NCBI GenBank assembly: GCA_963778795.1 | Contig: CAVZVU010000001.1 | Coordinates: forward strand, 1,777,574-1,841,573 | Direction: 5' to 3' | Source of the DNA: an uncultured Pseudomonadota bacterium | GTDB lineage: Bacteria; Myxococcota_A; Polyangia; Fen-1088 | Length of the DNA stretch: 64,000 bases | In this document: positions 2,605 through 48,127 of the stretch, one piece after another | How positions within the stretch are numbered: the stretch's first letter is position 1 | How the letters are laid out: each line of letters begins with the position of its first letter | Notes under the pieces: generated by a model | Databases searched by the model: none | Seen by the model: only the letters and a program-made list of their open reading frames with translations | What the model was told of the DNA's origin: nothing | Position numbers and translations under genes: made by a program

Positions 2605-5503
2605 ATGACGAAGTCACTCATCCCGATCGTTTTGCTCATTGCCGGCGCCGCATCCGCGGCCCCGCGCGCTCCAGCCCATCCGGCTGGCCATCCGGCTGCT
2701 GCCGCGCCCGCTCCCGGGACCGTTCAGCGGCTGTCGGACGGCGTGCTGGTTCACGTCGGCGACGGCTTCCTGAAGCTGGAGGTCTGCGCCAGCGACGTCG
2801 TCCGCGTGGCCTACGCCAAGGACCAGGCCTTCTTCGCCCGCAAGAGCCTGGCGGCGCAGCCGAAGCGCTGCGACGGCGCGAAGTTCGATGTGACCCAGGA
2901 CGCCGGCACGGCGACGCTGGCGACGTCGAAGCTGCGCGCCCGCGTCGACCTCGGCCACGGGCCGGGTGGCGTTCCTCGATGCGACCGGCGCTCCCGTGCT
3001 GGAGGAGAAGGACGGCGGCCGGACCATCATGCCGGCGATCGTCCAGGGCGAGAACACCCAGCACGTGCGACAGGAGTGGCTGCCCCAGGCCGACGAGGCG
3101 CTCTACGGCCTCGGCGAGAACCATCTCGGCCTGCTCAACCTGAAGGGATACGACCTCGACCTCTGGCAGCACAACGGCACCATCGTCATTCCCTTCCTGG
3201 TGTCGAGCCGCGGCTGGGGCGTCCTGTGGGACAACACCTCGTTCACGCGCTTCGGCGATCTGCGCGAGCTGGAGCCGATCCCGGCCGAGCGCCTGATCGA
3301 CGCCAACGGCAAGCGCGGCGGTCTCACCGGGTCGTACTACCGCGGTGCGCGACTTCGAGCAGCTGGTCGGCGAGCGCGTCGACCGCGTCATCGACATCGC
3401 GCTGTCGAGCAAAGAGAAGAAACCCAACCAGCTGATCTTCGCCGGCTTGCCCGAGGGCAACGCCAGCGTGCGCTGGGCCGGCGAGGTCGAGCCGGAGGTC
3501 ACCGGCGACTACCAGTTCCAGACCTTCTCGAACAGCGGCATCAAGCTGTGGATCGACGATCGGCTGGTGATCAACCACTGGCGCCAGGGCTGGCTGCCCT
3601 GGAAGGACGTGGCCAAGGTGCGGCTCGAGGGCAAGCGCCGCCACAAGCTGCGGCTCGAGTGGAGCAAGGATCAGGACATGGAGACGGTGCAGCTGCTGTG
3701 GAAGCCGCCGGCACGACGACTCGACGTCGAGCCCCGACGACCTCGCTCTGGTCGGAGGTCGGCGACGGCATCGACTACTACTTCGTCTACGGTCCCGATC
3801 TGGACAAGGTCGTCGCGGGCTACCGGCGCGTCACCGGGCCGGCGCCGATGATCCCGCGCTGGGCGCTGGGGCTGTGGCAAAGCCGGCAGCGCTACGAGAC
3901 GTCGCAGCAGAGCCTCGACGTCGTCGACGGTTTCCGCTCCCGCGGCATCCCGTTCGACAACATCGTCCAGGACTGGTTCTACTGGAAGGAAGACAGCTGG
4001 GGCTCGCACGAGTTCGATCCGGTCCGCTTCCCCGATCCCGACAAGTGGGTCCGCTCGGTCCACGACAAGCACGCGCGGCTCATGATCTCGGTGTGGGGCA
4101 AGTTCTATCCCGGCACGAAGAACTTCGAGGCCATGCGCTCGCAGGGTTTCCTCTATCACGCGCAACTTGAGCGAGGGGCTGCGCGACTGGGTCGGCGACG
4201 GCGGCTATCCGTACACGTTCTACGACGCCTTCAATCCCGCGGCGGGCAAGCTGTTCTGGTCGCAGATGGAGCGGACGCTGTTTCGCAAGAAGGTCGACGC
4301 CTGGTGGCTGGACGCGCCGGAGCCCGATCTGCTGCCGACGCCCACGCTCGACGGGCAGCGCACCCACATGCACCCGACGGCGCTCGGCTCCGGGTCGCGC
4401 ATGCTCAACGCGTACTCGCTGGTGAACAGCAAGACGGTGTACGAGGGGCAGCGGTCGGTGGCGCCGGACCAGCGGGTCTTCATCCTGACCCGCTCGGCGT
4501 TCGCGGGTCAGCAGCACTACGGGGCGGCGGTCTGGTCGGGCGACATCACGTCGACCTGGACGGCGCTGCGCGCGCAGATCCCGGCCGGGCTCGGCATGTC
4601 GGTCTCGGGCGTCCCGTACTGGAGCATGGACATCGGCGGATTCTCCGTGCCGGCGCGCTTCGCCGCGGAGCACCCGACAGCCGGAAGATGCGGAGGAGTG
4701 GCGCGAGCTGAACGCGCGCTGGTTCCAGTTCGGCACCTTCGTTCCGCTGTTGCGCGTGCACGGCGAAGCGCCGAAGCGCGAGATGTGGGAGCTCGGCGGC
4801 GAATCGCACCCCGCCTACCAGGCCGAGCTGAAGTTCGACCGGATTCGCTATCGCCTGCTCCCGTACCTGTACTCGCTCGCGGGCGCCGTCACGCACGAGG
4901 GCGGAACGATGATGCGGCCGCTGGTCATGGACTTCCGCGGCGACGCCAAGGCGCGGGACGTCAGCGACCAGTACCTCTTCGGGCCGGCGTTCCTCGTCAG
5001 CCCGGTGACCACGTACAAGGCGCGCAGCCGCGCCGTGTACCTGCCGGTCGGCGCCCGGCTGGTACGACTTCTGGTCCGGCGCGGCCGTCGCCGCCGGAAA
5101 GACCATCGACGTGCCGGCGCCGTACGACTCCATGCCCCTGCACGTCAAGGCCGGCTCCATCGTTCCGACCGGCCCCGAGATCCAGTACACCGACGAGAAG
5201 CCGGCCGACCCGATCGTGCTGTGGGTTTACGCGGGGGCGGACGGCGCGTTCACGCTGTACGAGGACGACGGCCTCACCTACGGCTACGAGAAGGGCGCGT
5301 TCGCGCGCATCCCGATCCGCTGGAACGACGCGACCCGCACGCTCACCATCGGCAAGCGGGAGGGCACCTTCCCCGGCATGCAGAAGCAGCGGACGTTCGA
5401 GGTGGTGCTGGTCGCGAAAGGGAAGCCGGTCGGCTTCACGTTCGCGCCCAAGGCCGACAAGAGCGTGCGCTACGAGGGCGGCGCGGTCGACGTGAAGCTG
5501 TAG
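2605..5503 (+). CDS. GH31 alpha-xylosidase/alpha-glucosidase-like enzyme with PA14 insertion; secreted; at least six frameshifts
   Basis: Signal peptide MTKSLIPIVLLIAGAASAAP. The PA14 segment reads VTGDYQFQTFSNSGIKLWIDDRLVINHWRQGW. GH31 catalytic-domain motifs present: DNIVQDWFYWKEDSWGSHEFDP, KKVDAWWLDAPEP, AAVWSGDITSTWTAL, GVPYWSMDIGGF. The C-terminal beta-sandwich ends MPLHVKAGSIVPTG...FTLYEDDGLTYGYEKG. Coding signal hops between the ORFs 2383.., 2966.., 3345.., 4167.., 4750.. and 5111.. Confidence 0.85.
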
Positions 5504-5520
5504 ACCGGTAGACCGACGGC

Positions 5521-5712
5521 GCGCGGCGCGTCCCGCGCTGTTCAGTTAAGGCGATGGCGAAGACTCTGGCCCCCTCTCCCGTCCCCGGGAGAGGGTTGGG
5601 GTGAGGGGAGGCCTTGCGAGAGCTCACGCGCGCACGTTGCCTTTGCAAGGCTTGCCCTCACCCTAGCCCTCTCCCGAGTACGGGAGAGGGGACCGGATTT
5701 GGGCGCCGCGGC
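5521..5712. repeat. palindromic MITE/REP-like element (GTTCAGTTAAG + paired ~47-bp inverted arms with GGGAGAGGG...GGGTGAGGG)
   Basis: Left arm cccctctcccgtccccgggagagggttggggtgaggggaggccttgc. The reverse complement of the right arm is cccctctcccgtactcgggagagggctagggtgagggcaagccttgc. The arms are ~90% identical; each carries its own small hairpin and they flank a ~30-bp centre. The element lies between the convergent GH31 and SGNH gene ends. Confidence 0.75.
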
Positions 5713-5751
5713 CAACCTAAACTGAGGAACAGTATTGGCGCTAAGAGCGAC

Positions 5752-6877
5752 GGCGGCGTGCGGCAGCGAGAAGATCGCGATCGTGGCGAGCAACAGGAGG
5801 CTGCCGCCGCCGGATTCACCCCGGTGACCGGCGGTCAGGCCGCACGCGCAGCCCTTTCCGGGGGAGGAGGTGGTGCCGGCGTCGGCGCCGGTTGAACCGC
5901 CCGCGCCCGCGCCACCCGTGCCGGCGCTCGTGCCACCCGTGCCGGCGCTCGTGCCGCCCGCGCCTGCGCTGGTGCCGCCCGCGCCCGTGCCGCCCGCGCC
6001 GCGCCCGCCCACGCCCGCGCCGCCCGCGCCGCGTGCATCCGCGCCCCCTCCGTCGACGCCCGCGCCGCCGGTTCCCCGGGCGTCGGATGCGCCGCCGTCG
6101 GTGGTTCCGCCTGTGAGCGGCCGCAGCAGTCCGTCGTGCATCACCTGCGCGATCAGCGCGTAGCCGGTGTCGTTGGGATGAACGCCGTCGGTAAGAAAAA
6201 CTCGGGATGCAGCGCGGTCGGCGTGTCGACATCGATCACCGGCAACCCCTTGGCCGCGGCCACCTGCCGCAGCAGCGGCAGCATCTGATCGTGGATGATC
6301 GCGCCGCTGATGCCGAAGGCGTTGTCGAAGGCCCGCGCCGGCAGCGCCAGGTAGACCAGCGGGTGGGTCGGCAGCGAGGCGAAGTGATCGACCATGGCGG
6401 TGCAGTCGGTCACGAATTGCGCGGCTCGCGTGGCCGGGGGGGCGGGCATCCAGTTGTAGGACTTCGAATCGTTGGTGCCGAGCATGATGATCACGTCGAC
6501 GACCGCCGTGGCCCCCGCGCCCGACACGAAGGTGGTGGCGTCCGTGTACGCTTGCTGATTCTGATAGGGGTTGTCGGCCACCGACATCATCGTGGTGCCG
6601 GAGACGCCGAAGTTCCTGACCTGCACCGACGACCCGAACAGCCCCTGCAAGACCGCCGGATACGAAGCGGTGGCGGGCGACGAGAGTCCGTAGCCGAAGG
6701 TGATGCTGTCGCCGACGCAAGCGACATGGGTCGGCGTCCGCACCTGCGCCGCGGCGCGAGATCCCGACAGCACCGCCGTCAACGCGAGCAGCAGCGCCAG
6801 CGCCCGCGCGCAACCCGTGACGGCGGTTGCTGGTCCGGAGTCCGAAGCCGGTCAAAATATGCTGGGTCGTGGACATG
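5752..6877 (-). CDS. SGNH/GDSL hydrolase (carbohydrate esterase) with Gly/Thr/Ala-rich linker and MYXO-CTERM-like sorting tail; frameshifted (~6781, ~6190, ~5765)
   Basis: GDSL block VACVGDSITFGYG, then LGTNDS, and DGVHPN near the C-terminus. 21-bp tandem DNA repeats at 5900-6000 encode GGTSAGAGGTSAGTGG. The tail reads GKGCACGLTAGHRGESGGGSLLLLATIAIFS; a -1 shift after it reads AAARRRRS then stop (Cys – Gly-rich – TM – basic tail). The ORF-track 487-aa ORF 5542..7005 is a composite artefact that reads through the palindromic element. Confidence 0.7.
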
Positions 6878-6971: not shown

Positions 6972-7535
6972 ATGATCCGTGCCTCATCGCACAAATGTCG
7001 GCCACCGATGACGCTCGCCGTCGCCACCGTTTTCGCCGTCTCCTTGTCGGCGCTGGTCCTCGGTTGCAGGCCCCCGGAAGGGCCTACGATTCCCCTGTAC
7101 CCGAACGCCCAGACGACCCGCCTGCCGCGCGACCAGATCGCCGAGGTCGCGGGTCCCATCGAGAGGATTGACGGCAATCAGGTCGCGGGCTGGCGCGGCT
7201 ACTTCGACCTGCTGCCGGGGTGTCACGTCGTCGAGCTGGAACACCGGTTGTCCTTCTTTGTCGTCGGACGCCCCGCTCGCGGCAATGGGTCGTACCTACT
7301 ACAACTTGGACCGCTTCCGACCGTGACCTACGCCCTTCGTATGAAGGCGGGCGCTCGCTACGTCATTCGGCAGGAGCCTCACCTTGGCGGGTTCTGGACG
7401 ATTAACGGCATCTACCGCTCCGCGCGCGAGGAGCAGCCAAACGGACCGGCAATCGAGCTCGCTCCGACCGAGTCCGCAGACGAGATCAGAGCCTGCAAAG
7501 AGTGGGAGGCCACGACGCTTCGCGGGGGAGCATGA
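6972..7535 (+). CDS. lipoprotein of unknown function (paralog A)
   Basis: Signal + lipobox (AVSLSALVLGC). Conserved core shared with the downstream paralog: PLYPN(A/G)(Q/E)TTRLPR.Q.A.V.GPI..ID.N.VAG..G.FDLLPGCH.VELE.RL and YA.RMK.GA.Y.IR.E. Confidence 0.55.
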   Translation: MIRASSHKCRPPMTLAVATVFAVSLSALVLGCRPPEGPTIPLYPNAQTTRLPRDQIAEVAGPIERIDGNQVAGWRGYFDLLPGCHVVELEHRLSFFVVGRPARGNGSYLLQLGPLPTVTYALRMKAGARYVIRQEPHLGGFWTINGIYRSAREEQPNGPAIELAPTESADEIRACKEWEATTLRGGA

Positions 7536-7589: not shown

Positions 7590-8129
7590 ATGCCTGACAA
7601 CCGAACGCAGAGGCGGTCCGCTCGGCTGTGCGAGCGTTGGGGATCGCGGACACTCATCGTCCCCACGATCTTCGCCACGATCTTCGCCACGCTCACCCTG
7701 GCCTGTCACCCCGCGGATATGCCGGGTGTCCCGCTCTACCCCAACGGCGAGACGACGCGGCTGCCGCGCTTTCAGCTCGCCCAGGTCTCTGGTCCCATCT
7801 CGAAGATCGACAGCAACGAAGTGGCGGGCCAGGGTGGGCTGTTCGATCTGTTGCCGGGGTGTCACATCGTCGAACTGGAGCGGCGTCTGGGGGGAGAAAA
7901 CTTTTCCCTCTCGAGTGGCTCCTATTGGAGCGGACAGTTTCCGGTCATCATCTACGCCATTCGCATGAAGCCGGGGGCTTACTACGACATTCGCCGAGAG
8001 CTTCAATCGGACGGGCTGCCAGGCCGAGGCCGGATCCGCCTCTCCGCGCGCGAACAGACGGCACGCGGCGCGGTGACCGACCTGTTTCCCGTGAAATCCG
8101 CGCAGGACATCAAGGCCTGCCAGGAGTGA
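7590..8129 (+). CDS. lipoprotein of unknown function (paralog B)
   Basis: Lipobox LTLAC, with a 12-bp tandem duplication in the signal peptide (TIFATIFAT). About 45% identical to paralog A over the mature region, with the same conserved motifs. Confidence 0.55.
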   Translation: MPDNRTQRRSARLCERWGSRTLIVPTIFATIFATLTLACHPADMPGVPLYPNGETTRLPRFQLAQVSGPISKIDSNEVAGQGGLFDLLPGCHIVELERRLGGENFSLSSGSYWSGQFPVIIYAIRMKPGAYYDIRRELQSDGLPGRGRIRLSAREQTARGAVTDLFPVKSAQDIKACQE

Positions 8130-8720
8130 GACACCTGCCCTCACCCTAACCCAACCCTAACCCCAATCCCGTTCAGTTAAGCGGGGCACCGAGAAGCAAA
8201 GGGCGCGGGTCCTGCCCTGCGTGGGTCCTCCCAAATGGGATCGGACCGCGGGAGCAGCCTGGCTTGACGTGGCAACTCCCGATCGTGGCTCATCGGAATC
8301 GGTCGCGCAGGGCACGACACGCCGCGGTCCGCTCCCATTTGCGGTCCCCCCACTCCGGTCACCCGCGCCCTTCGCTTCTCGGTGCTCTCAACGAGATCGC
8401 TTGCGACACACTGGAACGATCCCGCCCCGGACGAGCCGAGAGCGTGCTCATTGAGAGCGGGGACCGATGAGGGCGCGGGTGGCACGGGGTGGGGGGGGCC
8501 CCCGATGCGGTCAGATGGCGGCGTGTCGTGCTCTGCGCGACCGATTCCGATGAATGGCGATCGGGAGTTGCCACAACAAGCCAGGCTGCTCCCGCCATCT
8601 GACCGCAGCGGGGAGGACCCCACCCCGTGACAGGACCCGCGCCCTCGTCGGTCCTCGCCCCGCTTTGAACCCGCGGCCCAAGCCTAAGGTTGGCCTAGCC
8701 CCGGGCTAGTCAGGGTGAGG
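8130..8720. repeat. ~590-bp nested palindromic MITE-like element of the same family (CCCTCACCCTAACCC / GTTCAGTTAAG termini; internal ~125-bp inverted repeat pair)
   Basis: IR-L ~8196-8325 and the reverse complement of IR-R ~8495-8625 align at ~85% identity (ggcgcgggtcctg...caactcccgatcg...catcggaatcggtcgcgcag.gcacgacacgccgc). A nested hairpin is present (caaatgggatcggaccgc / gcggtccgctcccatttg). The termini repeat motifs from the 5521-5712 element (ccctcaccctaaccc; gggctagtcagggtgaggg). ORFs predicted inside (e.g. 8177..8623) are treated as non-coding. Confidence 0.7.
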
Positions 8721-8744
8721 GTCAGCAAACCCGCGCAAGACCCG

Positions 8745-9768
8745 CTACCTGCGATGGCGAAACCGATCCAGCGCGACGGCGACGACGATGATGGCGCCGG
8801 TGACGATCTCCTGGACCCAGTTGGGCCAGCCCATCTGCGAGCATCCCGACTGGAGGACCTGCATGATGAACGCGCCGATCAGGGCGCCCAGGACCGAGCC
8901 TTCGCCGCCGGCCAGGCTGCCGCCGCCGATGACGACGGCGGCGATGACGTCGAGCTCGAGCCCGATGGCGCCGGTCGGATCGCCGACCGTCAGTCGGGAG
9001 AACTGCATCAGCCCGGCGATGCCGGCGAAGACCGCCGCCCAGGATGTAGACCGCCAGCTTGACCCGCGCCACGGGGACGCCGCACAGGCGCGCCGTCTGC
9101 TCGTTCGAGCCGATGGCGAAGACGTGCCGCCCGAAGCGGGTGTAGAGCAGCAGCGCTCCCACGGCGAAGGCCAGCAGGAACAGCATCCAGACGCCGGGCG
9201 GAAACAGCATCCACTCCCGATCGGCGGGCAGCCGCGCCAGCAGCTCGTTGAGCCAGGACGTGGGCGCGTCGATCTTCTGGTCGTGCGCCAGCCCCTTGGC
9301 GACGCCGCGCACGACCAGCATGGTCCCCAGGGTGACGATGAACGGCACCACCTTGAGCCGCGTGACCAGCAGGCCGTTGAGCGCGCCGCAGCCCACGCCG
9401 GCCGCGATGCCCGCCAGCGCCGCGATCACCGGCGGCGCGCCGGCGCGCAGGACGGCGGCGATCACCACGGTGGCCAGCGCGATGATCGCCCCGACCGAAA
9501 GGTCGATGCCGCCCGAGACGATCACGATCGTCATGCCGAGCGCGGCCACCGCCACGATGGTGGTCTGCCTGAAGATCGTCTCGAGGTTCGCGGGATCCGC
9601 AAAGCTGAGCCCGCGCGTGCCGCCGAGGAGCACCGAGAACAAGATGAAGACCGCGACCAGCCCCGCCGCCGCGCCCAGGTTCTTGCGCAGCACCGGCGAG
9701 GCCCAGAGGCGCAGCAGCAATCGCTGCGCCGTGCTCGCCTCGACTTCGCCTCCGGCTTTCACGCTCAT
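8745..9768 (-). CDS. ABC transporter permease (CUT2/RbsC-XylH-like monosaccharide permease); frameshift ~9010
   Basis: [12 protein letters not shown]...[14 protein letters not shown]...[23 protein letters not shown]...[21 protein letters not shown]..., C-terminal segment in another frame ([28 protein letters not shown]). The ATG overlaps the ATPase stop (ATGA). Confidence 0.8.
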
Positions 9769-11276
9769 GCCGCCTCGCTGCCCAGCGCCGCCTCGCGCAC
9801 CAGGGCCTGCTCGTCGAGCTCGCCCACCGGGCGCGCCGGGCCGAGTCGCCCGCGGCACATGACGGCGATGCGATCGCACACGCCGAGCAGCTCGGGCAGA
9901 TAGCTCGACACCATGATGACCGCCTTGCGGCGCAGGCTCGACGCGTTCGGCGACGATCTGCGACCAGCGCGTCGATGAGGTCGTAGATCTGCGCCTTCGA
10001 AGCCACGTCGATGCCGCGCGTCGGCTCGTCGAGCAGCAGCACGTCGACGTCGTGGTGGAGCAGCCGCGCGATGGCCACCTTCTGCTGGTTGCCGCCCGAC
10101 AGCTCGCCGACCGGCTGCTCCGGCCCCTGGCAGCGCACGTCGAGCCGCCGGATCCAGCGTTCGGCCAGCGGGCGGCGCGCGGACGGGCGCACCACCGCCG
10201 GCATCTTCGACAGGGTGAGGTTGTCGGCGATGCTGAGATCGAGCGCCAGCCCCTCTTCCTTGCGGTTCTCGCTGACCAGCGCCATGCCCTGCGCCCAGCG
10301 CTGTCGCGGGCGTGGCCGGCCCCGGAGTAGACGCCCAGCTTGACCTGGCCCGACACCACCGGGTCGAGGCCGACCAGCGCGCGCAGGAGCTCGGTGCGGC
10401 CCGCGCCGACCAGGCCGGCGATGCCCAGCACCTCGCCGCGGTGAAGGGTGAAGCTCGCGCGCTCGGGCTTGCCGACGCCCGCCAGCTCGGTCACGTCGAG
10501 CAGCGGCTCGCCGCGCGTCCGCGCGCTGCGCGGGTAGAGCTGCTCCACGCGCCGGCCCACCATCAGATCGACGATCGCGGGCACGGTGGTCTCCGCCATC
10601 GGCGCCGCCGCCCACGCGTCTGCCCGTCGCGCAGCACGGTGAAGCGATCGGCGACGCGCTTGCACCTCCTCGATGAAGTGGGAGATGTAGACGATGGCCT
10701 GGCCCTGCTGGCGCAGCCGAGCCACCAGCTCGAACAGCGCCTCGGCGTCGGCCTGGGCCAGGCTGCTGGTCGGCTCGTCCAGCACCAGCACGCGGCAGCC
10801 GACCGCCACCGCGCGCGCGATCTCGACGATCTGCTGGGCGGCGATCGGCAGCCCGCCCACCACCGCGTCGGGGCGGATGCGCGGATGGTGCAGCTCTTCC
10901 AGCGCGCGCAGCGCCTGCTGCCGCATCGCACGCGATCCAAGACGCCGCCGAGGCGTCCGACGACGCCCGGCCGCGCCGGCTCCATGCCGAGCAGGATGTT
11001 CTCGGCCACGGTCAGGTGCGGCGCCAGCGACAGCTCCTGGTAGATCATGGCGACGCCGGCGCGTCGCGCGTCCAGCGGCTCGGCCGGCGCGTAGCGGGCG
11101 CCGTCGATCTCCATCTCGCCCGCGTCCGGCTGGATGGCGCCCGACAGCACCTTCATGAGCGTGCTCTTGCCGGCGCCGTTCTGGCCCAGCAGCGCGTGCA
11201 CCTCGCCCGCCTGGACCACCAGATCGACGCCGCCCAGCGCCTGCGTGGCGCCGAAGCGCTTGCGCACGCCGCGCAT
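9765..11276 (-). CDS. sugar ABC transporter ATP-binding protein, two fused NBDs (RbsA/MglA/XylG-like); frameshifted
   Basis: NBD1 has Walker [10 protein letters not shown], signature and Walker [15 protein letters not shown]2 has [26 protein letters not shown] and [12 protein letters not shown]. Pieces are spread over ORFs 10563..11351, 8722..10926 and 9008..10615. Confidence 0.85.
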
Positions 11277-24638: not shown

Positions 24639-26955
24639 GTGAAGATCTGGGCGATGTCGCTGGCGGGGATCGGCGCAGTCTTGCTGCAACCCGGCTGCAA
24701 ATCGGTGTGCACGTGCACCGTGCCACCCGAGACGCCCGGCACGGCCGTGGCGACGGCCGCCACGGCTCAGCCCGCCGCGGCCACGCCAACCCCGGCGGCG
24801 GCAGCCGGCGGCGGCGGCCTGGCCGGCAGCGTGAAATACAACTGGAAGAACGTCGTCATTCTCGGCGGCGGCTTCGTCAGCGGCGTCGTCTTCAGCCCGA
24901 TCGAGAAGGATCTCGTCTACGCCCGCACCGACGTTGGCGGCGCGTACCGGTGGAATCCGGCGGACAAGACCTGGATCCCGATCACCGACCACCTCGGACG
25001 CGACTCGAACTTTCTCGGCATCGAGAGCCTGGCGACCGATCCGGTCGACCCCAACAAGGTCTACCTGGCCGCGGGCACGTACACGGGATCGTGGGTTGGC
25101 AACGGCGCCATCCTGCGTTCGAACGATCGGGGCAACACCTGGCAGGTGACCGACATGCCGGTCAAGATGGGCGGCAACGAGAACGGCCGCTCGATGGGCG
25201 AGCGCCTGGTCATCGACCCCAATCTGCCGAGCATTCTCTACTTCGGCTCGCGCAAGGGCGGGCTATTGAAGAGCGCCGACGCGGGCGCGAGCTGGGAAAA
25301 GGTCGGCGGCTTCTCGGCCACCGACAACGACAAGGGGATCGGCATTCCGGTCGTCGTTTTCGACAAGGCGAGCGGCGCCAAGGGCAAGCCGACGCCGATC
25401 ATCTACGCCGCCGTCGCCAACAACCAGGGCTCGCCTCTACCGCAGCACCGATGGCGGCGCGACCTGGAAGCTGATGCCGGGCCAACCCACCGGCGTGATG
25501 GTCAGCCACGCGGCCTTCGACAGCACCGGCGCGCTGTACCTCAGCTACCAGAATGGCCCGGGCCCGAACGACGTGAGCGACGGAGCGGTCTGGACGTACC
25601 AACCAAAGCAGGAGAAGTTCATCGACATCACGCCGGCCGCCCCCAAGGGCGAGGACAAGTTCGGCTACGGCGGGCTGTCGCTGGACGCCGCGCACCCCGG
25701 GACCCTGATGGTCAGCACCATCGACCGATGGAGCCACGGCGACGAGGTTTATCGAACGACCGACGGCGGCAAGACCTGGAAGGCGCTGCTGCCGAAGGCC
25801 GTCCGCGACGACGCCGGCGCGAAGTACCTCTACTGGCACAAGAGCGAGCCGATCGGACGGGGCTGGATGGGCGACATCGACATCGACCCCTTCAATCCGG
25901 GGCGGGCGATGTACGTGACCGGCGCCGGGCTCTGGGCGACCGACGACGCGAACGCCGCCGATACGTCGGACAAGCCGACCCACTGGACGTTCTTGAACCG
26001 CGGGCTCGAGGAGACGGTCATCAAAGGCCTGGTCAGCCCACCTGCCGGACCGCCGTTGCTGAGCGCGATGGGCGATCTCTGCGGGTTCCGGCACGACGAT
26101 CTGAACGCGCCCTCCGCGGGCGGGATGTTCGACAACCCGCTGTGCGGCTCGGCGAGCGCAATCGATGTCGCCTGGGCCAAGCCGGACGCCGTCGCGCGGG
26201 TCGGCTGGGACGACAAGCAGCGATGGGGCGCCTCGTCGCTGGACGGGGGCAAGACCTGGACGCCGTTCAAGACCGTGCCCAAGGGCAAGGGCGCGGGCTC
26301 GATCGCGGTGTCGGCAGACGGTTCGGCCTTCGTGTGGGCCCCGCTGGAGGGGCCGGTGGTTTTCTCGAAGGACCAGGGCGCGACCTGGGCGCGCGCCGAG
26401 GGGCTTCCCAACGCGGAGGCCTCTCCGGATTGGGCGCCGGTTCCGTTCCGCCCGGCCGCCGACCGCGTGAACGCCAAGAAGTTCTACGTGCTCGACGCCC
26501 GGGGCGGGCAGGCGTACACCAGCGTCGACGGTGGGGCGCACTTCACCCCTTCGCCGACCGGGTTGCCCAACCTTCCCGAGTACCAGTTCAGCTCCGCGTC
26601 GGCGCAGGCCACGCCCGGCATCGAAGGCGACGTGTGGCTCACCAACTTCAGAGAGCTCAATCACTCGACCGATTCGGGCAAGAGCTATGAGTCCATCTCC
26701 GGCGTGAGCGAGGCGTACGCGCTCGGCTTTGGCAAGCCGGCCGCCGGCAAGACCTATCCGGCGCTGTATCTCATCGGCAAGATCGGCGACGTGACCGGCT
26801 TCTTCCGCTCCGATGACGCCGGCGCCAAGTGGGTCCGCATCAACGACGATCAGCACCAGTACGGCTTCTGCACCATCATCACCGGCGACCCGCGCGTGTA
26901 TGGCCGCGTCTACGTGGGAACCGGCGGCCGCGGGATCGTGTACGGCGAGCCGTAG
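24639..26955 (+). CDS. GH74 xyloglucanase-like glycoside hydrolase (copy 2); one frameshift ~25440
   Basis: MKIWAMSLAGIGAVLLQPGC then YNWKNVVILGGGFVSGVVFSP...RTDVGGAYRWNP...SNDRGNTWQ...SADAGASWE... (frame switch) ...RTTDGGKTW...SLDGGKTWT...SKDQGATW...SVDGGAHF...STDSGKSYE...SDDAGAKW...GIVYGEP. About 55% identical to copy 1. Confidence 0.85.
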
Positions 26956-26968
26956 CGCCAGGTTCGAA

Positions 26969-29279
26969 GTTGCAGCTCGTTCTCTCGGGAATCGCCCGGT
27001 GGCGCCGGGCGCTCCTGGGCGCGTTGGCTCTGGCCAGCACGGTCGGATTCGCGCTCGCGCGGGCCGGCAGCATCGCCGCGCAAACGCCGTCGCCGGTTCG
27101 GAATTTTCCGTACCTCGATCCGACCAAGCCTCTCGACGCGCGCGTCGAGGACCTGCTGGCCCGGCTCACGCTCGAGGAGAAGGTCGGCCTCGTCCACGCC
27201 AACGGCAAGTTCCGCGCGGGCGGCGTCGAGCGGCTCGGCGTGCCCTACCTGTGGACCGCCGACGGACCGCAGGGCGTGCGCGAGGAGCTGGGCGTCGACT
27301 CGTGGGAGCCGGCCGGCTGGACGAGCGACTTCGCGACCGCGATGCCGGTCGGCATCGCCCTCGCGTCGACCTGGAACACCGAGCTGGCGCGAGGCCTACG
27401 GCCGCACGGTCGGGCGACGAGGCCCGCGCGCGCGGCAAGCACGTGATCCTCGGCCCCGCGCTGAACATCCAGCGGACGCCGCTGTGCGGCCGCAACTACG
27501 ACTACTTCGGCGAGGACCCGTGGCTCGCCGGCCGCATCACGGTCGGCTACGTGAAGGGCATGCAGGCCGAGCAGACGATCGCCTGCCTCAAGCACTACGC
27601 CGCCAACAACCAGGAGCAGGACCGCGGCTCGATCGACGTGCAGGTGGACGAGCGGCCGCTGCGCGAGATCTACCTGCCGGCGTTCGAGGCGGGCGTGCGC
27701 GAGGGCGGGGCGCTCGCGGTGATGGGCGCCTACAACAAGGTCCGCGGCGAGCACGCCTGCCACAACGACTACCTGCTCAACCAGGTGCTCAAGCGCGAGT
27801 GGGGCTTCGCGGGCGGCGTCATCTCCGACTGGGGCGGCACCCACGACACGCGCGAGGCCGTGCTCAAGGGCCTCGACCTCGAGATGGGCACCGGCAAGCC
27901 CTACGAGCAGTACTTCCTCGCCGGCCCCTTCCTGGCCGGGCTGAAGGACGGCACGTTCCCGATCGTCGGTGCTCGACGACAAGGTGCGCCGCAACCTGCG
28001 CATGCTGATCGCGTCGGGCGCCCTCGACGGCCGCCGGCCCGGCACGATCAACACCAAGGCGCACCAGGACGTCGCGCGCCGCGTCGCGCAGGAGGGGATC
28101 GTCCTGCTCAAGAACGAGCCTCCGTCCGTGCTGCCGCTCGACCTCGCGAAGCTGAAGACGATCGCGGTGATCGGCGACAACGCCGTGCGCCGCTTCGCCG
28201 CGGGCGGCAACGCGGCCGGCGTGAAGGCCTTCCACGAGATCACGGCGCTCGACGGCATCCTGGCGCGCGTGGGCGGCCGGGCCGACGTCGTCTTCTCGCA
28301 GGGCTACCGGCAGCCGCGAGCCGCGCCGCGACGGCCCGCGCGACCTGGCCGGCGTGCGCACGAGCGAGCTGACCGCGGCGTCGCCCGAGGAGGCGAAGGA
28401 GCTGGCCGACCGCGCCGTCGAGACCGCGCGCCACGCCGACGCCGTGCTCTTCGTCGGCGGCCTCACCCACCAGGCGGGCGCCGACGACGAGGGCGTCGAC
28501 CGCCGCGACCTCTCGCTGCCCGCGCACCAGGACGAGCTCATCGCGCGCCTCGTCGAGGCGAACCCGCGCACCGCCGTGGTGCTGATCGCGGGCTCTCCGG
28601 TCGACATGACCGCGTGGCTCGCGAAGACGCCCGCCGTGCTGCAGGCCTGGTACGGCGGCTCGGAGGCCGGCCACGCGCTCGCCTCGGTCGTCTTCGGCGA
28701 CGTCAGCCCGTCGGGCAAGCTGCCCTGCACGTTCCCGAAGGCGCTCGCCGACTCGCCCGCCCACGCCGCCGGGCCTCGCCCGCCAGTTCCCCGGCGAGGG
28801 TGGCAAGGTCTGGTACGACGAGGGCCTGCTGGTCGGCTACCGCTGGAACGACGCGAAGGCGCGTCGAGCCGCTCTTCCCGTTCGGCCACGGTCTGAGCTA
28901 CACGCGCTTCCGTACGCGGAGCTGCAGTCGAAGCTGACCGCCGGTCGCCGACGGCCCGAGCGCCACGCTCTCGCTCCAGCTCACCAACACCGGCGAACGC
29001 GAGGGCGCCGAGGTCGTGCAGGCGTACGTGCGTCCGGTGAAGCCGCCGGTCGCGCGGCCCGAGAAGGAGCTGAAGGCCTTCGCGAAGGTCCTGCTCAAGC
29101 CGGGCGAGACGAAGACCGTCACCCTCGCCCTCGGTCCGCGCGCCTTCGCCTACTACGACCCCGACGCGAAGGCCTGGCGCGTCGCGAAGGGCCGCTACGA
29201 GCTGCTGGTCGGCGCCAGCTCGCGCGACATCCGTCTCACCGGCAGCGTCGAGGTGACGACCTCCACGCTGTTGAAGTAA
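26969..29279 (+). CDS. GH3 beta-glucosidase; several frameshifts
   Basis: Signal peptide (ARWRRALLGALALASTVGFALA). GH3 N-domain: LTLEEKVGLVHANGKF...GVPYLWTADGPQGV...HVILGPALNIQRTPLCGRNYDYFGEDPWLAG...ACLKHYAANNQE...AFEAG...GVISDWGGTHDT. alpha/beta domain: IAVIGDNA...VLFVGGLTHQAGADDEGVDRRDLSLPAHQDELI...GSPVDMTAW...AWYGGSEAG...LFPFGHGLSYT. C-terminal FnIII-like domain in ORF 29016..29279. Confidence 0.85.
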
Positions 29280-29280
29280 C

Positions 29281-29350
29281 CGCGCGCTCCCCCCGCGCTC
29301 CCCCCGCCTATCCCCGCCTATCCCCTCGCCCCGGGCCGCCGGGGAGAGGG
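29281..29350. terminator. direct repeats plus GC-rich hairpin between convergent GH3 and GH2 genes (putative bidirectional terminator / partial REP-like element)
   Basis: cgcgctcccccc x2 and gcctatcccc x2, then stem cccctcgccccgg-gcc-gccggggagaggg followed by gtgagggtgaggg. Related to the GGGAGAGGG/GGGTGAGGG arms of the 5521 and 8130 elements. No T-tract. Confidence 0.4.
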
Positions 29351-29413
29351 TGAGGGTGAGGGGGCCGTCGACGAAGGAGACGAGAATCCGAAGAAGAAGA
29401 ACATCCGACGACG

Positions 29414-36136: not shown

Positions 36137-36161
36137 CCAGCGCGCGTCGAGCCCCCGGACG

Positions 36162-36452
36162 CTCCCGACACCGCTCCCAGGTTGATCTCCGGTCCCGACA
36201 CCGCACCCAGGTTGATCTCCGAGGCGGTCGCACGAAAGAACCGTCCGTCCGGACGGCCACTGTCCCGAATCCGGTCGGGCAGCGACGAGGAATCAACCGC
36301 TTAGGTGGATTCGTTCGTCCACTGGTCCAGACACGATCCGTGCCATACCTCGGAGCGACCTGGCTCGGAAATCAACCTGGGAGCGGCCGCACGAGCGGAA
36401 ATCAACCTGGGAGCGGCCGCACGCGCTGAAATCAACCTGGGAGCGGCGCACG
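36162..36452. repeat. inverted arrays of direct repeats: 2 x 29-bp (36162-36220) and 3 x 30-bp (36367-36452) sharing an inverted 20-bp core CCGCTCCCAGGTTGAT(C/T)TCC
   Basis: Left copies: tcccgacaccgctcccaggttgatctcc and ggtcccgacaccgcacccaggttgatctcc. Right copies: ggaaatcaacctgggagcggccgcacgagc x3. The reverse complement of the right core equals the left core. ~145-bp unique spacer. Located between the MFS gene stop (36480) and the kinase gene start (36136). Confidence 0.8.
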
Positions 36453-41647: not shown

Positions 41648-44600
41648 CTATTGCCCCAGACCGGTGAGCATGATCGAAGGGAATCCGCCGGCGGTGGCGC
41701 TCACCTCCAGCGACGCCGTGCTCTGGACAGCGAGGCTGGGCAGGAACTGAACGTGAATCAGGCAGGTTTCGTTCTGGGCCAGCGCGGTCACCCCACCCAC
41801 GCAGTCGCCGTCATGGGGCACGATGGTGAAGTCGGCGTTGGGCGAGGCGAGGGTCACCGCGATCGGGGTGCTGGTCTGCTGGCCCGTGTTGGTGACGATG
41901 AACGCCTGCTCCACGGTCATCCCGATGGGAACCATGCCGAAGTCGATCGAGGACCCCGTATTGGGCGCCAACGTCAGCGCTGCTGGCGTCAGCGCGTTCG
42001 CTGACGCCGTGAAGGTCACCGATCCGCCCGTCGTCGCGGCCAGCGTCAGCATTCCGCTGCGCGCGCCCGCCGCCGATGGAGTGAACGAGACCTGAATCGT
42101 GCAGCTCGCGCCGCCCGGGAGCCCTACGGTGCAGTTGTTCTGACTGAAGGAAATCTCCCCAGGATCTCCGTTGGACAGCACGGGCGCGCTCGTTGCCAGG
42201 TCGCCCATGTTGATGACGGTCCAGGTCACCGGCATGCTGGGCGTGCCGACGACCGGCGTCAAGAAGTCGTGGCTGGTCGTGCCGGTCAGCAGCGCGGGGC
42301 GTTGGCCGGTGCCCGACAAGGACAGCGCTATCGCGTCGGTCCCGATGGCGGCGCTCGCGTTCAATGATGTGGTCTGCAGCCCCGAGCCCGGCGCCGTGAA
42401 GCTGACCTGAATCGTGCAGCTCAAGCCGCCCCCGAGCGAGCTGGGGGCGGTGGGACAATCCCCTGGGCCCGGCGTGACCAGCGCAAAGCCGAAGCCCGCC
42501 GCGGCCGACAGCGACACGGTCACCGCCGTGGCGGTCTGCTGGCCCGTGTTGGTGAGGACGAACGTCTGCGTCACCGTCGACGCGACCGGCACGTTGCCGA
42601 AGCTGGCCGAGGATCCGGTCGCGGGCGCCAGCGCCAGCGCCGCCGGCGTCTGGCCGGTCGCATTCGCGGTGAAGGTCAATGATCCGCCCGGTGACGCGGC
42701 CAGCGTTAGCGTGCCGCTGCGCGCCCCTGCCTGGGCCGGGCTGAACGACACGACGATGGCGCAGCTCGCCCCGCCCGCCAGCGCCACTGTGCAGTTGTTC
42801 GAGGCGACCAGCACCTCCCCAGGATCCCCGTTGGTCAGCGTCGGCATCCCGGTGGGAACGTCGCCGCCGTTGGTCACGGTCCAGGTCAGGCTGTCGCTGG
42901 TCGCGCCGACGACCAGCGTCCCGAAGTTGTTGCTGGTCATCCCGGTCAGCACCGCCGGGCGCTGGCCGGTGCCCGAGAGCGACAGCGGGGCGGCGGTGCC
43001 GCCGACCGCGGCGCTCGCGCCCAGCGCCGCCATCTGCAGGCCCGGCCCCGGCGCGGTGAACCTCACATGGATGGTGCAGCTCGCGCCGCCCGCCAGCGGG
43101 GCGGGCGTCGCGGGGCAATCCCCCGTGACCGGCGGGACCAGCGCAAACCCCGAAGTCGCGGCCGTGGTCAGCGTGACTGTCGCCACCCCCGTCGCCTGCT
43201 GGCCAGTGTTGGTGAGCACGAAGGCCTGCGTCACCGCCGCACCCACCAGCACGTTGCCAAACCCGGTCGAGGATCCGGCCGCGGGCGCCAAGGCGAGACC
43301 GGCCGCCGTCTGTCCGGTCGCGCTCGCGGTGAAGGTGACTGAGCCGCCCGGCGTCGCGGCCAGCGTCAGCATCCCGCTGCGTGCGCCCGCCGCCGCCGCG
43401 CTGAACGAGACCGCGATGGTGCAGCTGGCCCCGGGCGCAAGCGCCGCTGTGCAGGTGTTCCCGCTGACCAGCACCTCGCCCGGATCCCCGTTGGCCAGCG
43501 CCGGCACGCCCGTCGGAACGTCGCCGCCGTTGGTCACGGTCCAGGGCACACTCCCGCTGGTCGCGCCGACGACCACCGTTCCGAAGTTGTTGCTGCTGGT
43601 GGTGGCGGTCAGCAGCGCGGGGCGCTGGCCATTGCCGGAGAGCGACAAGCCGGGAGCGGTCCCGCCGACGCTGGCGGACGCGCCCAGCGTCGCCGTCTGC
43701 AGTCCCGCGCCCGGCGCGGTGAACTGCACATGGATGGTGCAACTGGCGCCGCCCGCCAGCGGCGCGGGAGTCGAGGGGCAATCCCCCGCGATCGGCGCCG
43801 CCAGCACGAAGCCAGAGGTCGCGGCGGTGGTCAGCGACACGGTCACCGCCGTCGTCGCCTGCTGGCCGGCGTTCGTCAGCACGTAGGCCTGCGTCGCCGT
43901 CGATCCGACCAGCACGTTGCCGAAGCTGGTCGAAGACCCGACCGCGGGCGCCAGGACCAACCCCGCGGCGGTCTGTCCCGTGGCGCTGGCGGTCAGGGTC
44001 ACCGTGCCGCCTGGAGATGCCGTCAGGGACAAGGTCCCGCTGCGCGCTCCCGCCGCCGACGGACGGAAGGAGACGCTGATCGTGCACTGACCGCCGCCGG
44101 GAATCGCCACGGTGCAGTTGTTCGCTCCGACGATGAGCTCGGGCTGGTTGCCATTGGTCAGCGCCGGTATGCCGGTCGCGGCGTCGCCGGCGTTGCTGAT
44201 CGTCCAGGTGAAGGCGCCGCTGGTCGCGCCGACGACAACCGTGCCGAAGTTGTTGGTGGTGGTGCCCGAGAGCGCCGCCGGGCGCTGGCCGTTGCCCGAC
44301 AGAGACAGCGGCGGGGCGGTGCCGCCGACGGTGGCGCTTGCACCGAGGGTCGCGGTTTGCAGTCCCGCGCCCGGCGCGGTGAACCTCACGTGGATGGTGC
44401 AGCTGGCGCCGCCCGCGAGCGTCGTGGTCGTGGTGCAGTCGCCGGTGACCGGCGCGACCACCGCGAAGCCGGAGGTTGCGGCGGTGGTCAACGTCACCGT
44501 CACCGCCGTCGTCGCCTGTTGGCCGGTGTTGGTGAGGACGAATGTCTGCGTGCCGGTGGCCCCCACCAGCACGTTACCGAAGCTGGCCGACGAGCCGGTC

Positions 44601-47600: not shown

Positions 47601-48127
47601 AAGCCGGTGGCATGGAAGGCGACCGAGCCCTGCTGCTTGCCGACAACGGTGGGCGAGAAGACGACGAACACGCGACAGCTCGTGCCGGCGGGGAGAGGAT
47701 TGCCGCCGCACTCGTCGGTGATCGAAAACCCGGCGCCGGCGCTGGCGGCGTCGAGCACCACGCTGACCCCGTCGCTGGTGCTACCGCCGTCGTTGCTGAC
47801 GGTGAACGTCGCGCTCATGCTGGCGGTGCCGACCGGTACGAGACTGAAGTCGTGCGAGGTGCTGTCGACGACCAGGTGCGCGGGCGCGGGCCGGTCGGTG
47901 GACCCGTCGCCGTCGGCGTGGCCGTCGGTGCGGTCGATTGTCGCGTCGCGGTCGAGCGACGCGCCGTCGCCCGTGCCGATCTGGCTCGCGTCCTCGTTGA
48001 GCCTCCCGCCGCTGTCCATCGGTTCGGTGCACGACGAAGCTGTCAGCAGGACGGACAGGCAAACCAAGATCGCTCGACTAAGAGATCGATATGCTTTGCC
48101 CGCCGCCAGTCCCCCTCCAATAAACAT
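41648..48127 (-). CDS. giant (~2,150 aa) cell-surface lipoprotein built from tandem choice-of-anchor-D-like repeat domains; many frameshifts
   Basis: N-terminus MFIGGGLAAGKAYRSLSRAILVCLSVLLTASSC. About seven ~235-aa units each contain two ~110-aa domains with the recurring pattern FG.V.VG...TQTFVLTNTGQQAT..V.VTLT....GFA.V....GDC......LAGGASCTIHV.FTAPG.G...A.L.....G and GQRPA.L.G.T..NFGT.VVGATS...TWT..N.GD..TG.P.L.N....E..V..N.CT...AGG..C.I.VSF.P....GAR.G.L.L.A.PGG. Signal is spread over ORFs 41648.., 41811.., 44574.., 45508.., 45893.., 46821.. and 46871..48127. Confidence 0.75.

What the first reader, a model, noticed from the sequence alone, without database searches (positions are those of the whole stretch)
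5521..5712. Family of palindromic MITE/REP-like elements marked by GTTCAGTTAAG and GGGAGAGGG…GGGTGAGGG arms, sitting between convergent genes
The 5521-5712 element has two ~47-bp inverted arms (~90% identical) around a short centre, each arm itself a small hairpin. The same sequence words recur at 8130-8720 (termini CCCTCACCCTAACCC, GTTCAGTTAAG, GGGCTAGTCAGGGTGAGGG) and partially at 29281-29350. All three copies lie exactly at convergent gene ends, so they may act as bidirectional terminators or mRNA stabilisers, or be miniature mobile elements.
Basis: seen in the sequence. Interest (0 to 1): 0.6.

Follow-up and report, generated by a model that had tools for sequence, protein, structure and literature searches.

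The report
BoxC pair carried by IS4-type MITE
The 5521-5712 palindrome is a roughly 200-bp non-coding mobile element with insertion-sequence IS4-type ends, carrying a pair of the long-known, very widespread 'BoxC' hairpin/triplex repeats; it sits just after a stop codon between two converging genes and is absent from a 91-94% identical relative.

Summary

The two marks are different things:
- **Arms.** Each arm is an exact copy of the known BoxC / PIT / TMECO motif (CCCTCNCCC-N3-6-GGGNGAGGG-N3-GGGNGAGGG), described in E. coli in the 1990s and present from 36% to 73% GC hosts.
- **GTTCAGTTAAG.** This is the inner part of an IS4-subgroup terminal inverted repeat, (C/T)AATRCNGTTCAGTTAAG. Autonomous 1.43-kb IS4-like elements in Ralstonia and Burkholderia carry the same ends.

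Short elements with these ends and BoxC-type cargo occur in Pseudomonas, Pseudothauera, Methylococcaceae, Planctomycetota and metagenomes. They carry 10-14-bp target duplications and usually sit at the apex of terminator hairpins.

In this window:
- **Element A (5540-5737)** and **element B (8164-8677)**, which has the same ends but different cargo, are both missing from a syntenic relative. They are insertions.
- **Site C (29323-29362)** is a solo BoxC with no IS4-type ends.

The MITE reading is therefore supported. The REP and terminator readings are not.

Caveats: copy A has a truncated left end and only a 5-6-bp duplication. Most BoxC copies elsewhere lack IS4 ends. No transposase lies in the window.

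The parts
5540..5737 (.). Element A: about 198-bp palindromic non-autonomous element (MITE) with IS4-type ends and a BoxC pair as cargo
   Evidence: Window 5540-5736 is absent from syntenic relative L164 at 91-94% flank identity. Strong hairpin fold. Aligns along its length with TIR-bounded elements from other phyla.
5540..5551 (+). Left terminal repeat of A, inner part only (GTTCAGTTAAGG). The outer CAATAC is missing; 5533-5539 (ccgcgct) is flanking DNA.
   Evidence: The empty site in L164 shows that 5533-5539 belongs to the flank.
5572..5607 (+). BoxC/TMECO motif, + orientation: CCCTCTCCC-GTCCCC-GGGAGAGGG-TTG-GGGTGAGGG
   Evidence: Strict published pattern matched (pattern).
5608..5654 (.). 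Spacer between the two BoxC motifs. Contains GCGCGCACGTT (5628-5638), also present in the spacer of the E. coli hrpB-mrcB BoxC pair.
5655..5690 (-). BoxC/TMECO motif, - orientation: CCCTCTCCC-GTACTC-GGGAGAGGG-CTA-GGGTGAGGG
5716..5737 (-). Right terminal repeat of A; reverse complement CAATACTGTTCCTCAGTTTAGG, an IS4-type end with small indels
   Evidence: The insertion boundary relative to L164 falls exactly after ...AGTATTG.
5535..5539 (.). Left copy of the duplicated target GCGCT
   Evidence: L164 5527-5532 (GGCGCT) aligns to both window 5534-5539 and 5737-5742.
5738..5742 (.). Right copy of the duplicated target GCGCT; overlaps the stop codon (CTA, 5741-5743) of the minus-strand esterase gene with a MYXO-CTERM-like tail
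8164..8677 (.). Element B: about 514-bp element with the same IS4-type ends but different cargo, two about 200-nt hairpin units
   Evidence: Absent from relatives L164 and L161 at the orthologous site. With its flanks (8130-8725) it folds as a giant hairpin, z -17.9.
8164..8182 (+). Left terminal repeat of B: CAATCCCGTTCAGTTAAGC, 1 mismatch to the family consensus
   Evidence: 88% identity to the L126 end.
8186..8385 (.). Hairpin unit H1 of element B
8457..8658 (.). Hairpin unit H2 of element B, related to H1. An 85.6% identical copy lies at another locus of a related genome (L166 3129-3339).
8662..8677 (-). Right terminal repeat of B, decayed; reverse complement GCCGCGGGTTCAAAGC, with a 3-nt deletion in GTTCAGTTAAG
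8135..8163 (-). Left flank of B: decayed BoxC-type sequence (CCCTCACCC-TAA-CCCAACCC...). This is target DNA, not part of B.
   Evidence: Relative L161 has an intact BoxC in - orientation at this position.
8678..8721 (+). Right flank of B: BoxC-like remnant CTAGCCC-C-GGGCTAG-TCA-GGGTGAGGG, abutting the permease stop codon (8722-8724)
29323..29362 (+). Site C: solo BoxC motif, mismatch type with a longer first loop (CCCTCGCCC-N10-GGGAGAGGG-TGA-GGGTGAGGG); no IS4-type ends
   Evidence: Fold not significant.

Best explanation
Element A is a miniature, non-coding transposable element (MITE) of the IS4 family, IS4 subgroup. Its ends are the roughly 18-bp terminal inverted repeat (C/T)AATRCNGTTCAGTTAAG. 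Its cargo is an inverted pair of the known BoxC/PIT/TMECO motif, so the whole element is a long palindrome. Such elements encode nothing and are moved in trans by an IS4-subgroup DDE transposase that recognises the ends. By analogy with the Tn5/Tn10 relatives, the move is probably cut-and-paste, with staggered target cuts giving 10-13-bp duplications; this step is inferred. Both the autonomous IS4-like elements and the short elements insert at the apex of small hairpins, typically intrinsic terminators. That explains why copies sit just after stop codons and between convergent genes. Element B is a second MITE with the same ends and different cargo, inserted into the loop of an older BoxC-derived palindrome. 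Site C is a solo BoxC with no such ends. Shown: motif identity, end identity with autonomous ISs, target duplications in relatives, presence/absence against a close relative, and hairpin targets. Inferred: the transposase source in this genome, the chemistry of the move, and any effect on transcription.
For: - **Arms are BoxC.** Both arms match the published TMECO/BoxC pattern exactly. They lie in the same +/- paired arrangement as the five E. coli K-12 pairs.
- **Ends are IS4-type.** E. coli IS4 ends are TAATGCCGATCAGTTAAGG and TAATGCCAGTCAGTTAAGC. A Ralstonia 1431-bp IS has TAATGCCGTTCAGTTAAG at both ends with a 12-bp duplication. Burkholderia, Klebsiella, Cupriavidus and an E. coli plasmid IS are similar. 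The published IS4-subgroup end consensus -AATR--------WTW---- and its 10-13-bp duplication length fit.
- **The combination recurs.** GTTCAGTTAAG within 10-40 nt of a BoxC hairpin gave 10 genome loci in Pseudomonas, Pseudothauera, Methylococcaceae, Planctomycetota and a deltaproteobacterial MAG, plus 19 metagenome loci. My rough chance expectation is below 1.
- **Target duplications.** Of 12 distinct complete elements (91-271 bp; 11 of them 91-191 bp), 7 have perfect 10-14-bp flanking duplications and 4 near-perfect ones. One 153-bp element sits at three different sites, each with its own 10-bp duplication.
- **Presence/absence.** Syntenic relative L164 (91-94% nucleotide identity) lacks window 5540-5736 and 8164-8677. 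Relative L161 also lacks B.
- **Hairpin targets.** Reconstructed target sites of both MITEs and autonomous ISs are apices of A-tract/stem/T-tract hairpins.
- **No coding capacity.** No transposase lies in the window and neither element has a convincing ORF.
Against: - Copy A has only a 5-6-bp duplication (GCGCT), not 10-13 bp. Its left end lacks the outer 7 nt and its right end carries indels.
- B's putative 12-bp duplication is only 8/12 identical.
- No IS4-subgroup transposase was found in the window, and the rest of the source genome could not be read.
- Most BoxC copies have no IS4-type ends: 0 of 94 in viral contigs. E. coli pairs align only to the interior of a MITE. Variovorax, Methylobacterium and Azospirillum pairs lack the ends. 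IS4-type transposition therefore cannot yet explain the BoxC family as a whole.
- Holder et al. 2015 reported no association of the motif with mobile elements.
- No transposition was observed experimentally.
Confidence: 0.75

Rival explanations
1. A REP/REPIN-type element: paired short palindromes spread by a REP-associated tyrosine transposase (RAYT), with no classical ends or target duplications.
For: The architecture looks like a REPIN: two inverted short hairpins around a spacer forming a long hairpin. It is intergenic and the motif is multicopy in many genomes.
Against: No GTAG-type 5' tag is present in the arms. Family members carry 10-14-bp target duplications and IS4-type ends, which REPINs do not. 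The motif is shared across phyla rather than being specific to one genome or one RAYT. No RAYT link was seen, though none was searched for genome-wide.
Confidence: 0.04
2. A host-selected structural RNA/DNA element, acting as a bidirectional terminator or 3'-end stabiliser at convergent gene ends, rather than a mobile element.
For: Very stable hairpin on both strands. It lies 36 nt and 3 nt from the two converging stop codons. The family inserts into terminator hairpins, and a palindromic insert could re-form the stem (the re-forming is inference). Kaplan et al. 2016 noted that these motifs lie near 3' UTRs, several between convergent genes.
Against: It is absent from a 91-94% identical relative with the same gene pair. 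No T-tract terminator is predicted at the site. PIT/BoxC elements were reported to show no promoter or terminator activity in E. coli. No Rfam family matches. This reading is compatible with the MITE explanation as a secondary effect.
Confidence: 0.1
3. The meaningful unit is only the BoxC motif, acting as a non-B DNA structure (intrastrand triplex, or a G-quadruplex/hairpin switch) that promotes local genome instability. On this reading the IS4-type ends are incidental neighbours.
For: The motif forms a stable triplex in vitro, and E. coli loci carrying it are more rearranged than controls. G3-N3-G3-N3-G3-N3-G3 is a canonical quadruplex pattern. The B site changes quickly between close relatives. 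Most BoxC copies lack IS4 ends.
Against: No triplex was detected in vivo or in duplex DNA. In the composites the ends sit outside the BoxC pair in the orientation of an IS, the duplications lie outside the ends, and the empty site lacks ends and BoxC together. The BoxC pair is therefore cargo, not a neighbour.
Confidence: 0.1
4. Chance similarity or an assembly artefact of an error-prone long-read assembly.
For: Many genes in the window are frameshifted. Short-read contigs of a relative break at the repeat.
Against: Word counts are far above shuffles. The same composite architecture is found in independent isolates and metagenomes.
Confidence: 0.01

Closest known systems
BoxC / PIT element / TMECO intrastrand-triplex motif (Holder et al. 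2015, PMC4666352, which traces it to 1990s E. coli BoxC reports and to the Maher group's PIT elements)
   Same: Both arms of A fit 5'-CCCTCNCCC N3-6 GGGNGAGGG N3 GGGNGAGGG-3' exactly. They are intergenic and arranged as a + then - inverted pair, as in five E. coli K-12 loci. Pair-level details are shared too...GGGAGAGGGGAC after the right motif, and GCGCGCACGTT in the spacer of one E. coli pair.
   Different: The pair here lies inside IS4-type terminal repeats and behaves as an insertion. The E. coli pairs examined lack such ends, and the literature reported no link to mobile elements. The host is a high-GC Polyangia-like myxobacterium. The only myxobacterial genus, of six searched, found in the paper's held supplements (one file cut) was Myxococcus xanthus, with 1 copy.
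IS4 and IS4-subgroup insertion sequences (De Palmenaer et al. 2008, PMC2266710)
   Same: The terminal repeat (C/T)AATRCNGTTCAGTTAAG matches E. coli IS4 and is 17/18 identical (L142) to the Ralstonia IS ends. The 10-14-bp duplications and insertion at hairpin or terminator apices are shared. I also recall a published IS4 target consensus AAA-N20-TTT (Mayaux et al. 1984), but could not retrieve it here.
   Different: There is no transposase gene. The element is 90-500 bp rather than 1.4-1.65 kb, and its interior is a palindromic BoxC module or, in B, other hairpin units.
MIC231 / IS231-derived mobile insertion cassettes of Bacillus cereus (IS4 family, IS231 subgroup)
   Same: Non-autonomous derivatives with IS4-family ends, moved in trans. 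They are cited in the reference list retrieved.
   Different: A different subgroup and host. MIC231 elements carry passenger genes, whereas these elements carry only structured repeats.
REP / REPIN elements with RAYT transposases
   Same: Paired short palindromes forming a long hairpin, intergenic and multicopy.
   Different: No GTAG tag is present. Classical terminal repeats and target duplications are present. The motif is not genome-specific.
Highly putative G-quadruplex groups HPG1/HPG2 of E. coli (Kaplan et al. 2016, PMC5100583)
   Same: This is the same sequence, GGGAGAGGG-TTA/CCG-GGGTGAGGG with a C-rich 5' flank. It is intergenic, near 3' ends, and several copies lie between convergent genes.
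   Different: That work interprets the motif as a quadruplex-hairpin-duplex switch and does not address mobility.

Membership tests
BoxC / PIT / TMECO motif | Sequence pattern CCCTCNCCC N3-6 GGGNGAGGG N3 GGGNGAGGG | tested here: met
   5572-5607 (+) and 5655-5690 (-) match strictly. 29323-29362 matches only with loop 1 relaxed to 10 nt (pattern).
BoxC / PIT / TMECO motif | Intergenic location, often as + / - inverted pairs | tested here: met
   All three sites are intergenic. A is a + then - pair, like E. coli pairs 1+2, 10+11 and 12+13.
BoxC / PIT / TMECO motif | Single strand folds into an intrastrand purine-motif triplex in vitro | not testable with these tools
   Only Watson-Crick folding could be computed. 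Triplex formation is from Holder et al..
IS4-family (IS4 subgroup) non-autonomous element / MITE | Terminal inverted repeats fitting the IS4-subgroup end consensus (-AATR--------WTW----) and matching the ends of autonomous members | tested here: met
   A's right end (CAATACTGTTC..) and B's left end (CAATCCCGTTCAGTTAAGC) fit. A's left end and B's right end are partial.
IS4-family (IS4 subgroup) non-autonomous element / MITE | Target-site duplication of 10-13 bp | tested here: inconclusive
   Met in related elements: 7 perfect and 4 near-perfect duplications of 10-14 bp. Not met by window copy A (5-6 bp). B shows 8/12.
IS4-family (IS4 subgroup) non-autonomous element / MITE | Small size and no coding capacity | tested here: met
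   A is 198 bp and B is 514 bp. There is no similarity to IS4 transposases, and the ORF across B has no family match.
IS4-family (IS4 subgroup) non-autonomous element / MITE | Presence/absence polymorphism with a recognisable empty site | tested here: met
   L164 lacks window 5540-5736 and 8164-8677 within 91-94% identical flanks.
IS4-family (IS4 subgroup) non-autonomous element / MITE | Several copies per genome, plus a cognate transposase in the same genome | not testable with these tools
   The source contig (1.84 Mb, P0103) could not be fetched. The only multi-site evidence is one 153-bp element at three sites in contigs from two samples of one groundwater series.
REP / REPIN (RAYT-dependent) | Conserved 5' GTAG-type tag on each REP and a RAYT gene flanked by the same REPs | tested here: not met
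   No GTAG tag is present in the arms. A RAYT gene was not searched for genome-wide.
Intrinsic (Rho-independent) terminator | G+C-rich hairpin directly followed by a T-run | tested here: not met
   No terminator-like site is predicted at 5504-5745 or 8130-8725.
Any Rfam RNA family | Match at the gathering score | tested here: not met
   No matches in the window or in ten related loci. Only generic long-hairpin microRNA matches far below threshold.

The most novel reading that the evidence does not exclude
BoxC/TMECO repeats have had no known origin or means of spread since the 1990s and were reported as unlinked to mobile DNA. On this reading they are, or descend from, the cargo of IS4-subgroup miniature elements that home to terminator hairpins. 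The palindromic cargo re-forms the split stem, so insertions are tolerated at gene 3' ends. The many end-less BoxC copies in E. coli, cyanobacteria and other hosts would then be decayed or internally propagated remnants.
Probability: 0.15. Interest if true: 0.7.

Novelty: new member of a known kind. Interest (0 to 1): 0.45.

Why it matters
The arm motif is old news. What I did not find described is its packaging. In at least five bacterial lineages and in metagenomes, BoxC-type modules (inverted pairs, single hairpins or variants) travel inside IS4-type ends, carry target duplications, and land in terminator hairpins.

That gives a concrete, testable route for how at least part of this very widespread and puzzling repeat family spreads. 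It also explains why copies collect between convergent genes.

For annotation, it shows that such palindromes in high-GC genomes are insertions that vary between close relatives, break short-read assemblies and generate spurious ORFs. It does not yet explain the majority of BoxC copies, which lack these ends.

Tried and rejected
- **Rfam.** Gathering-score scans of the window and of ten related loci found nothing. A permissive scan gave only generic long-hairpin microRNA matches.
- **E. coli genomes.** A megablast with an enterobacterial copy found nothing. The distant mode found the motif but no annotation.
- **Literature.** Searching for GTTCAGTTAAG gave only unrelated primers and viral sequences. 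Searches linking BoxC to IS4 or MITEs gave nothing. I could not retrieve a source for the IS4 target consensus I recall.
- **Source genome.** Three exact-protein look-ups failed. The 100%-identical fragment P0103 has no retrievable DNA, so no genome-wide census was possible.
- **Other relatives.** P0003 and P0097 had no DNA available. L163 and L165 are not syntenic downstream of the GH31 gene.
- **Element B.** Its interior has no match in plasmids or in the loci fetched earlier. Only one other copy was found, through a spurious ORF.
- **Viral contigs.** They contain no element with IS4 ends plus BoxC. None of their 94 BoxC copies has an IS4-like end nearby.
- **Pattern syntax.** Three scans failed on pattern syntax.
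- **Rejected: BoxC as the insertion target.** I considered that the IS4 ends had inserted into a pre-existing BoxC pair. The ends lie outside the pair in IS orientation, the duplications lie outside the ends, and the empty site lacks both together.
- **Empty-site fold.** The empty site of A puts the insertion point at a hairpin apex, but the fold is not better than shuffles (z -0.53), so it carries no weight.

Full report
**1. Observation**

- Arms 5565-5617 and 5645-5697 are 53 nt long, 85% complementary, and separated by 27 nt.
- Each arm contains a perfect mini-hairpin, CCCTCTCCCG-N4-CGGGAGAGGG.
- The intergenic stretch 5504-5745 folds at -153 kcal/mol (z -10.4) on the + strand and -142 kcal/mol (z -8.5) on the - strand.
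- GTTCAGTTAAG is found only at 5540 and 8171, against 0.12 expected.
- GGGTGAGGG is found six times, all at the three named sites, against 0.72 expected.
- All three sites lie between convergent stop codons.

The window is about 68% G+C. It has no tRNA genes and no Rfam family at the gathering score.

**2. The arms are the known BoxC / PIT / TMECO motif**

It returned 141 matches in contigs of 36-73% G+C, and most of them (94 of those with full flanks) are preceded by CCCTC(T/G)CCC and a short loop. This cannot be a genome-specific REP.

A full-text search for the two words led to Holder et al. 2015. That paper defines 5'-CCCTCNCCC N3-6 GGGNGAGGG N3 GGGNGAGGG-3' (TMECO). The motif was earlier called BoxC, and later PIT. 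The paper reports:
- 23 copies in E. coli K-12, always intergenic, five of them as +/- inverted pairs;
- 3610 copies in 262 genomes;
- no promoter or terminator activity;
- more rearrangement at loci that carry the motif;
- no association with mobile elements.

Kaplan et al. 2016 describe the same sequence as a possible quadruplex-hairpin-duplex switch near 3' ends.

Both arms of A fit the strict pattern (5572-5607 + and 5655-5690 -). Site C (29323-29362) fits with a longer first loop. The hairpin part of the motif appears in none of 100 simulated windows.

**3. GTTCAGTTAAG is an IS4-type terminal repeat**

A scan of one genome per species for GTTCAGTTAAG, 10-40 nt, then the first two BoxC blocks gave ten loci. 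By my rough estimate the chance expectation is well below 1. The loci come from Pseudomonas (3), Pseudothauera (2), a Methylococcaceae MAG (2), Planctomycetota (2) and a deltaproteobacterial MAG (1).

About half of them show the same plan. It reads (C/T)AATRC-N-GTTCAGTTAAG, then about 15-25 nt, the cargo (a BoxC + / spacer / BoxC - pair in five loci, a single BoxC-type hairpin in the two 91-bp Methylococcaceae copies), another 15-25 nt, and the reverse complement of the end.

The ends match those of autonomous insertion sequences:
- E. coli IS4 ends read TAATGCCGATCAGTTAAGG and TAATGCCAGTCAGTTAAGC.
- The published IS4-subgroup end consensus is -AATR--------WTW----, with 10-13-bp duplications.
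- A tblastn with the IS4 transposase found IS4-like elements on plasmids and chromids.
- The Ralstonia solanacearum element is 1431 bp, with TAATGCCGTTCAGTTAAG at both ends and a 12-bp duplication.
- Burkholderia, Klebsiella, Cupriavidus and an E. coli plasmid IS are close variants.

**4. The short elements move**

The same pattern found 19 metagenome loci. After removing duplicates, 12 elements of 91-271 bp (11 of them 91-191 bp) have both ends.
- Seven have perfect flanking direct repeats of 10-14 bp. Examples: L126 CGCCGTGGGGAG, L142 CGCTCAGTGGCG, L155 14 bp, L128 10 bp.
- Four have near-perfect repeats.
- One 153-bp element occurs at three different sites, each with its own perfect 10-bp repeat (L145, L150, L158).

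Removing the element and one repeat copy reconstructs the target. For most copies, and for the autonomous ISs, the target is the apex of an A-tract / stem / loop / stem / T-tract hairpin, that is, an intrinsic terminator. One example is CAATAAAAATCC[CGCTCAGTGGCG]GGATTTTTATTG. This agrees with my recollection of the IS4 target consensus AAA-N20-TTT, which I could not retrieve from the library. It accounts for the position at gene 3' ends.

**5. The window's own copies are insertions**

Homologues of the flanking proteins place the source among uncultured Polyangia-like myxobacteria. A 109-kb contig from a relative (L164) is collinear with the window at 91-94% nucleotide identity. It lacks two segments: window 5540-5736 and the stretch containing 8164-8677.

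- **Site A.** The relative reads ...CCCGGCGCT|AGGAGCGACGG..., while the window reads ...CCCGCGCT[GTTCAG...AGTATTG]GCGCTAAGAGCGACGG.... The right boundary is therefore exactly the end of the IS4-type repeat. GCGCT is duplicated, and the element lies 3 nt from the stop codon of the esterase gene. That gene's ...RRRRS tail is intact in the relative.
- **Site B.** One relative has 70 nt of decayed BoxC-like sequence. Another has an intact BoxC in - orientation. B is bounded by CAATCCCGTTCAGTTAAGC and a decayed partner. It was inserted into the loop of an older BoxC-derived palindrome.

B's cargo is two related hairpin units of about 200 nt. One further copy of this unit, next to a decayed end, lies at another locus of a related genome.

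**6. What does not fit**

- Copy A has only a 5-6-bp duplication and no outer left end. A 14-nt secondary deletion at a CT microhomology would explain both, but that is speculation.
- No IS4-type transposase is in the window, and the rest of the source genome could not be read.
- Most BoxC copies have no such ends. None of 94 in viral contigs has one. E. coli pairs align only to the interior of a MITE. Pairs on Variovorax, Methylobacterium and Azospirillum replicons lack them.

IS4-type transposition is therefore one vehicle for BoxC, not a demonstrated explanation for the whole family.

**7. Mechanism and function**

Shown:
- the motif identity;
- the identity of the ends with those of autonomous ISs;
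- the target duplications;
- the hairpin targets;
- the presence/absence difference.

Inferred:
- trans-mobilisation by an IS4-subgroup DDE transposase;
- the cut-and-paste chemistry, by analogy with Tn5/Tn10;
- the idea that a palindromic cargo lets the split terminator stem re-form, making insertions tolerable.

A terminator or stabiliser role for A is neither shown nor excluded. No T-run terminator is predicted, and published tests of the motif in E. coli were negative.

**8. Verdict**

The finding is real. Its arms are already known. Its MITE nature is supported, with a corrected anatomy. The link between BoxC and IS4-type ends appears not to be described in the literature I could search.

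I rate it a new member of a known kind, of moderate interest.

Noticed in passing
window 36160-36446: Two copies of CCCAGGTTGATCTCCG face three copies of GAAATCAACCTGGGAGCGGCCGCACG (32-nt period) in inverted orientation across a spacer of about 140 nt, in an intergenic gap. It looks like an array of regulator binding sites.
   Followed up: no
window 41790-47800: Tandem repeats of about 660 nt and 330 nt, 60-85% identical, lie inside very long minus-strand ORFs. This is probably a repeat-domain surface protein.
   Followed up: no
window 2966-5503, 8722-10926, 26813-29279: The GH31, ABC transporter and GH3 genes switch reading frame repeatedly. Related ENA contigs show the same fragmentary gene calls, which suggests indel errors of a long-read assembly rather than pseudogenes.
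   Followed up: partly
window 5741-5800: The esterase gene (acetylxylan-esterase-like SGNH domain) ends in a MYXO-CTERM-like tail. The window has a 1-nt deletion relative to L164, so the ORF reads through element A to a TGA inside the left terminal repeat.
   Followed up: partly
window 29280-29325: Two short tandem repeats (CGCGCTCCCCC x2.3 and CCCCGCCTAT x2.4) lie directly 5' of the solo BoxC motif.
   Followed up: no
window 6972-7535 and 7590-8129: Tandem paralogous genes for lipoprotein-like proteins of about 180 aa with no family match. Relative L164 has only one copy.
   Followed up: partly
L159-L162 (short-read contigs of a 91% identical relative): All four contigs end 5-140 nt after the lipoprotein-like gene, at the BoxC motif or the adjacent 19-nt repeats (TCCCCTCTCCCAGTTCCGG). 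These repeats break short-read assemblies.
   Followed up: partly
L135-L139 and L121-L158: Autonomous IS4-subgroup elements and their miniature derivatives both insert at the apex of intrinsic-terminator hairpins, duplicating the loop and upper stem.
   Followed up: yes
L131 (E. coli K-12 164547-164631) versus window 5628-5638: The spacer of the hrpB-mrcB BoxC pair and the spacer of element A share the 11-mer GCGCGCACGTT. Both have ...GGGAGAGGGGACCG after the right motif, which hints at common descent of whole pairs across phyla.
   Followed up: partly
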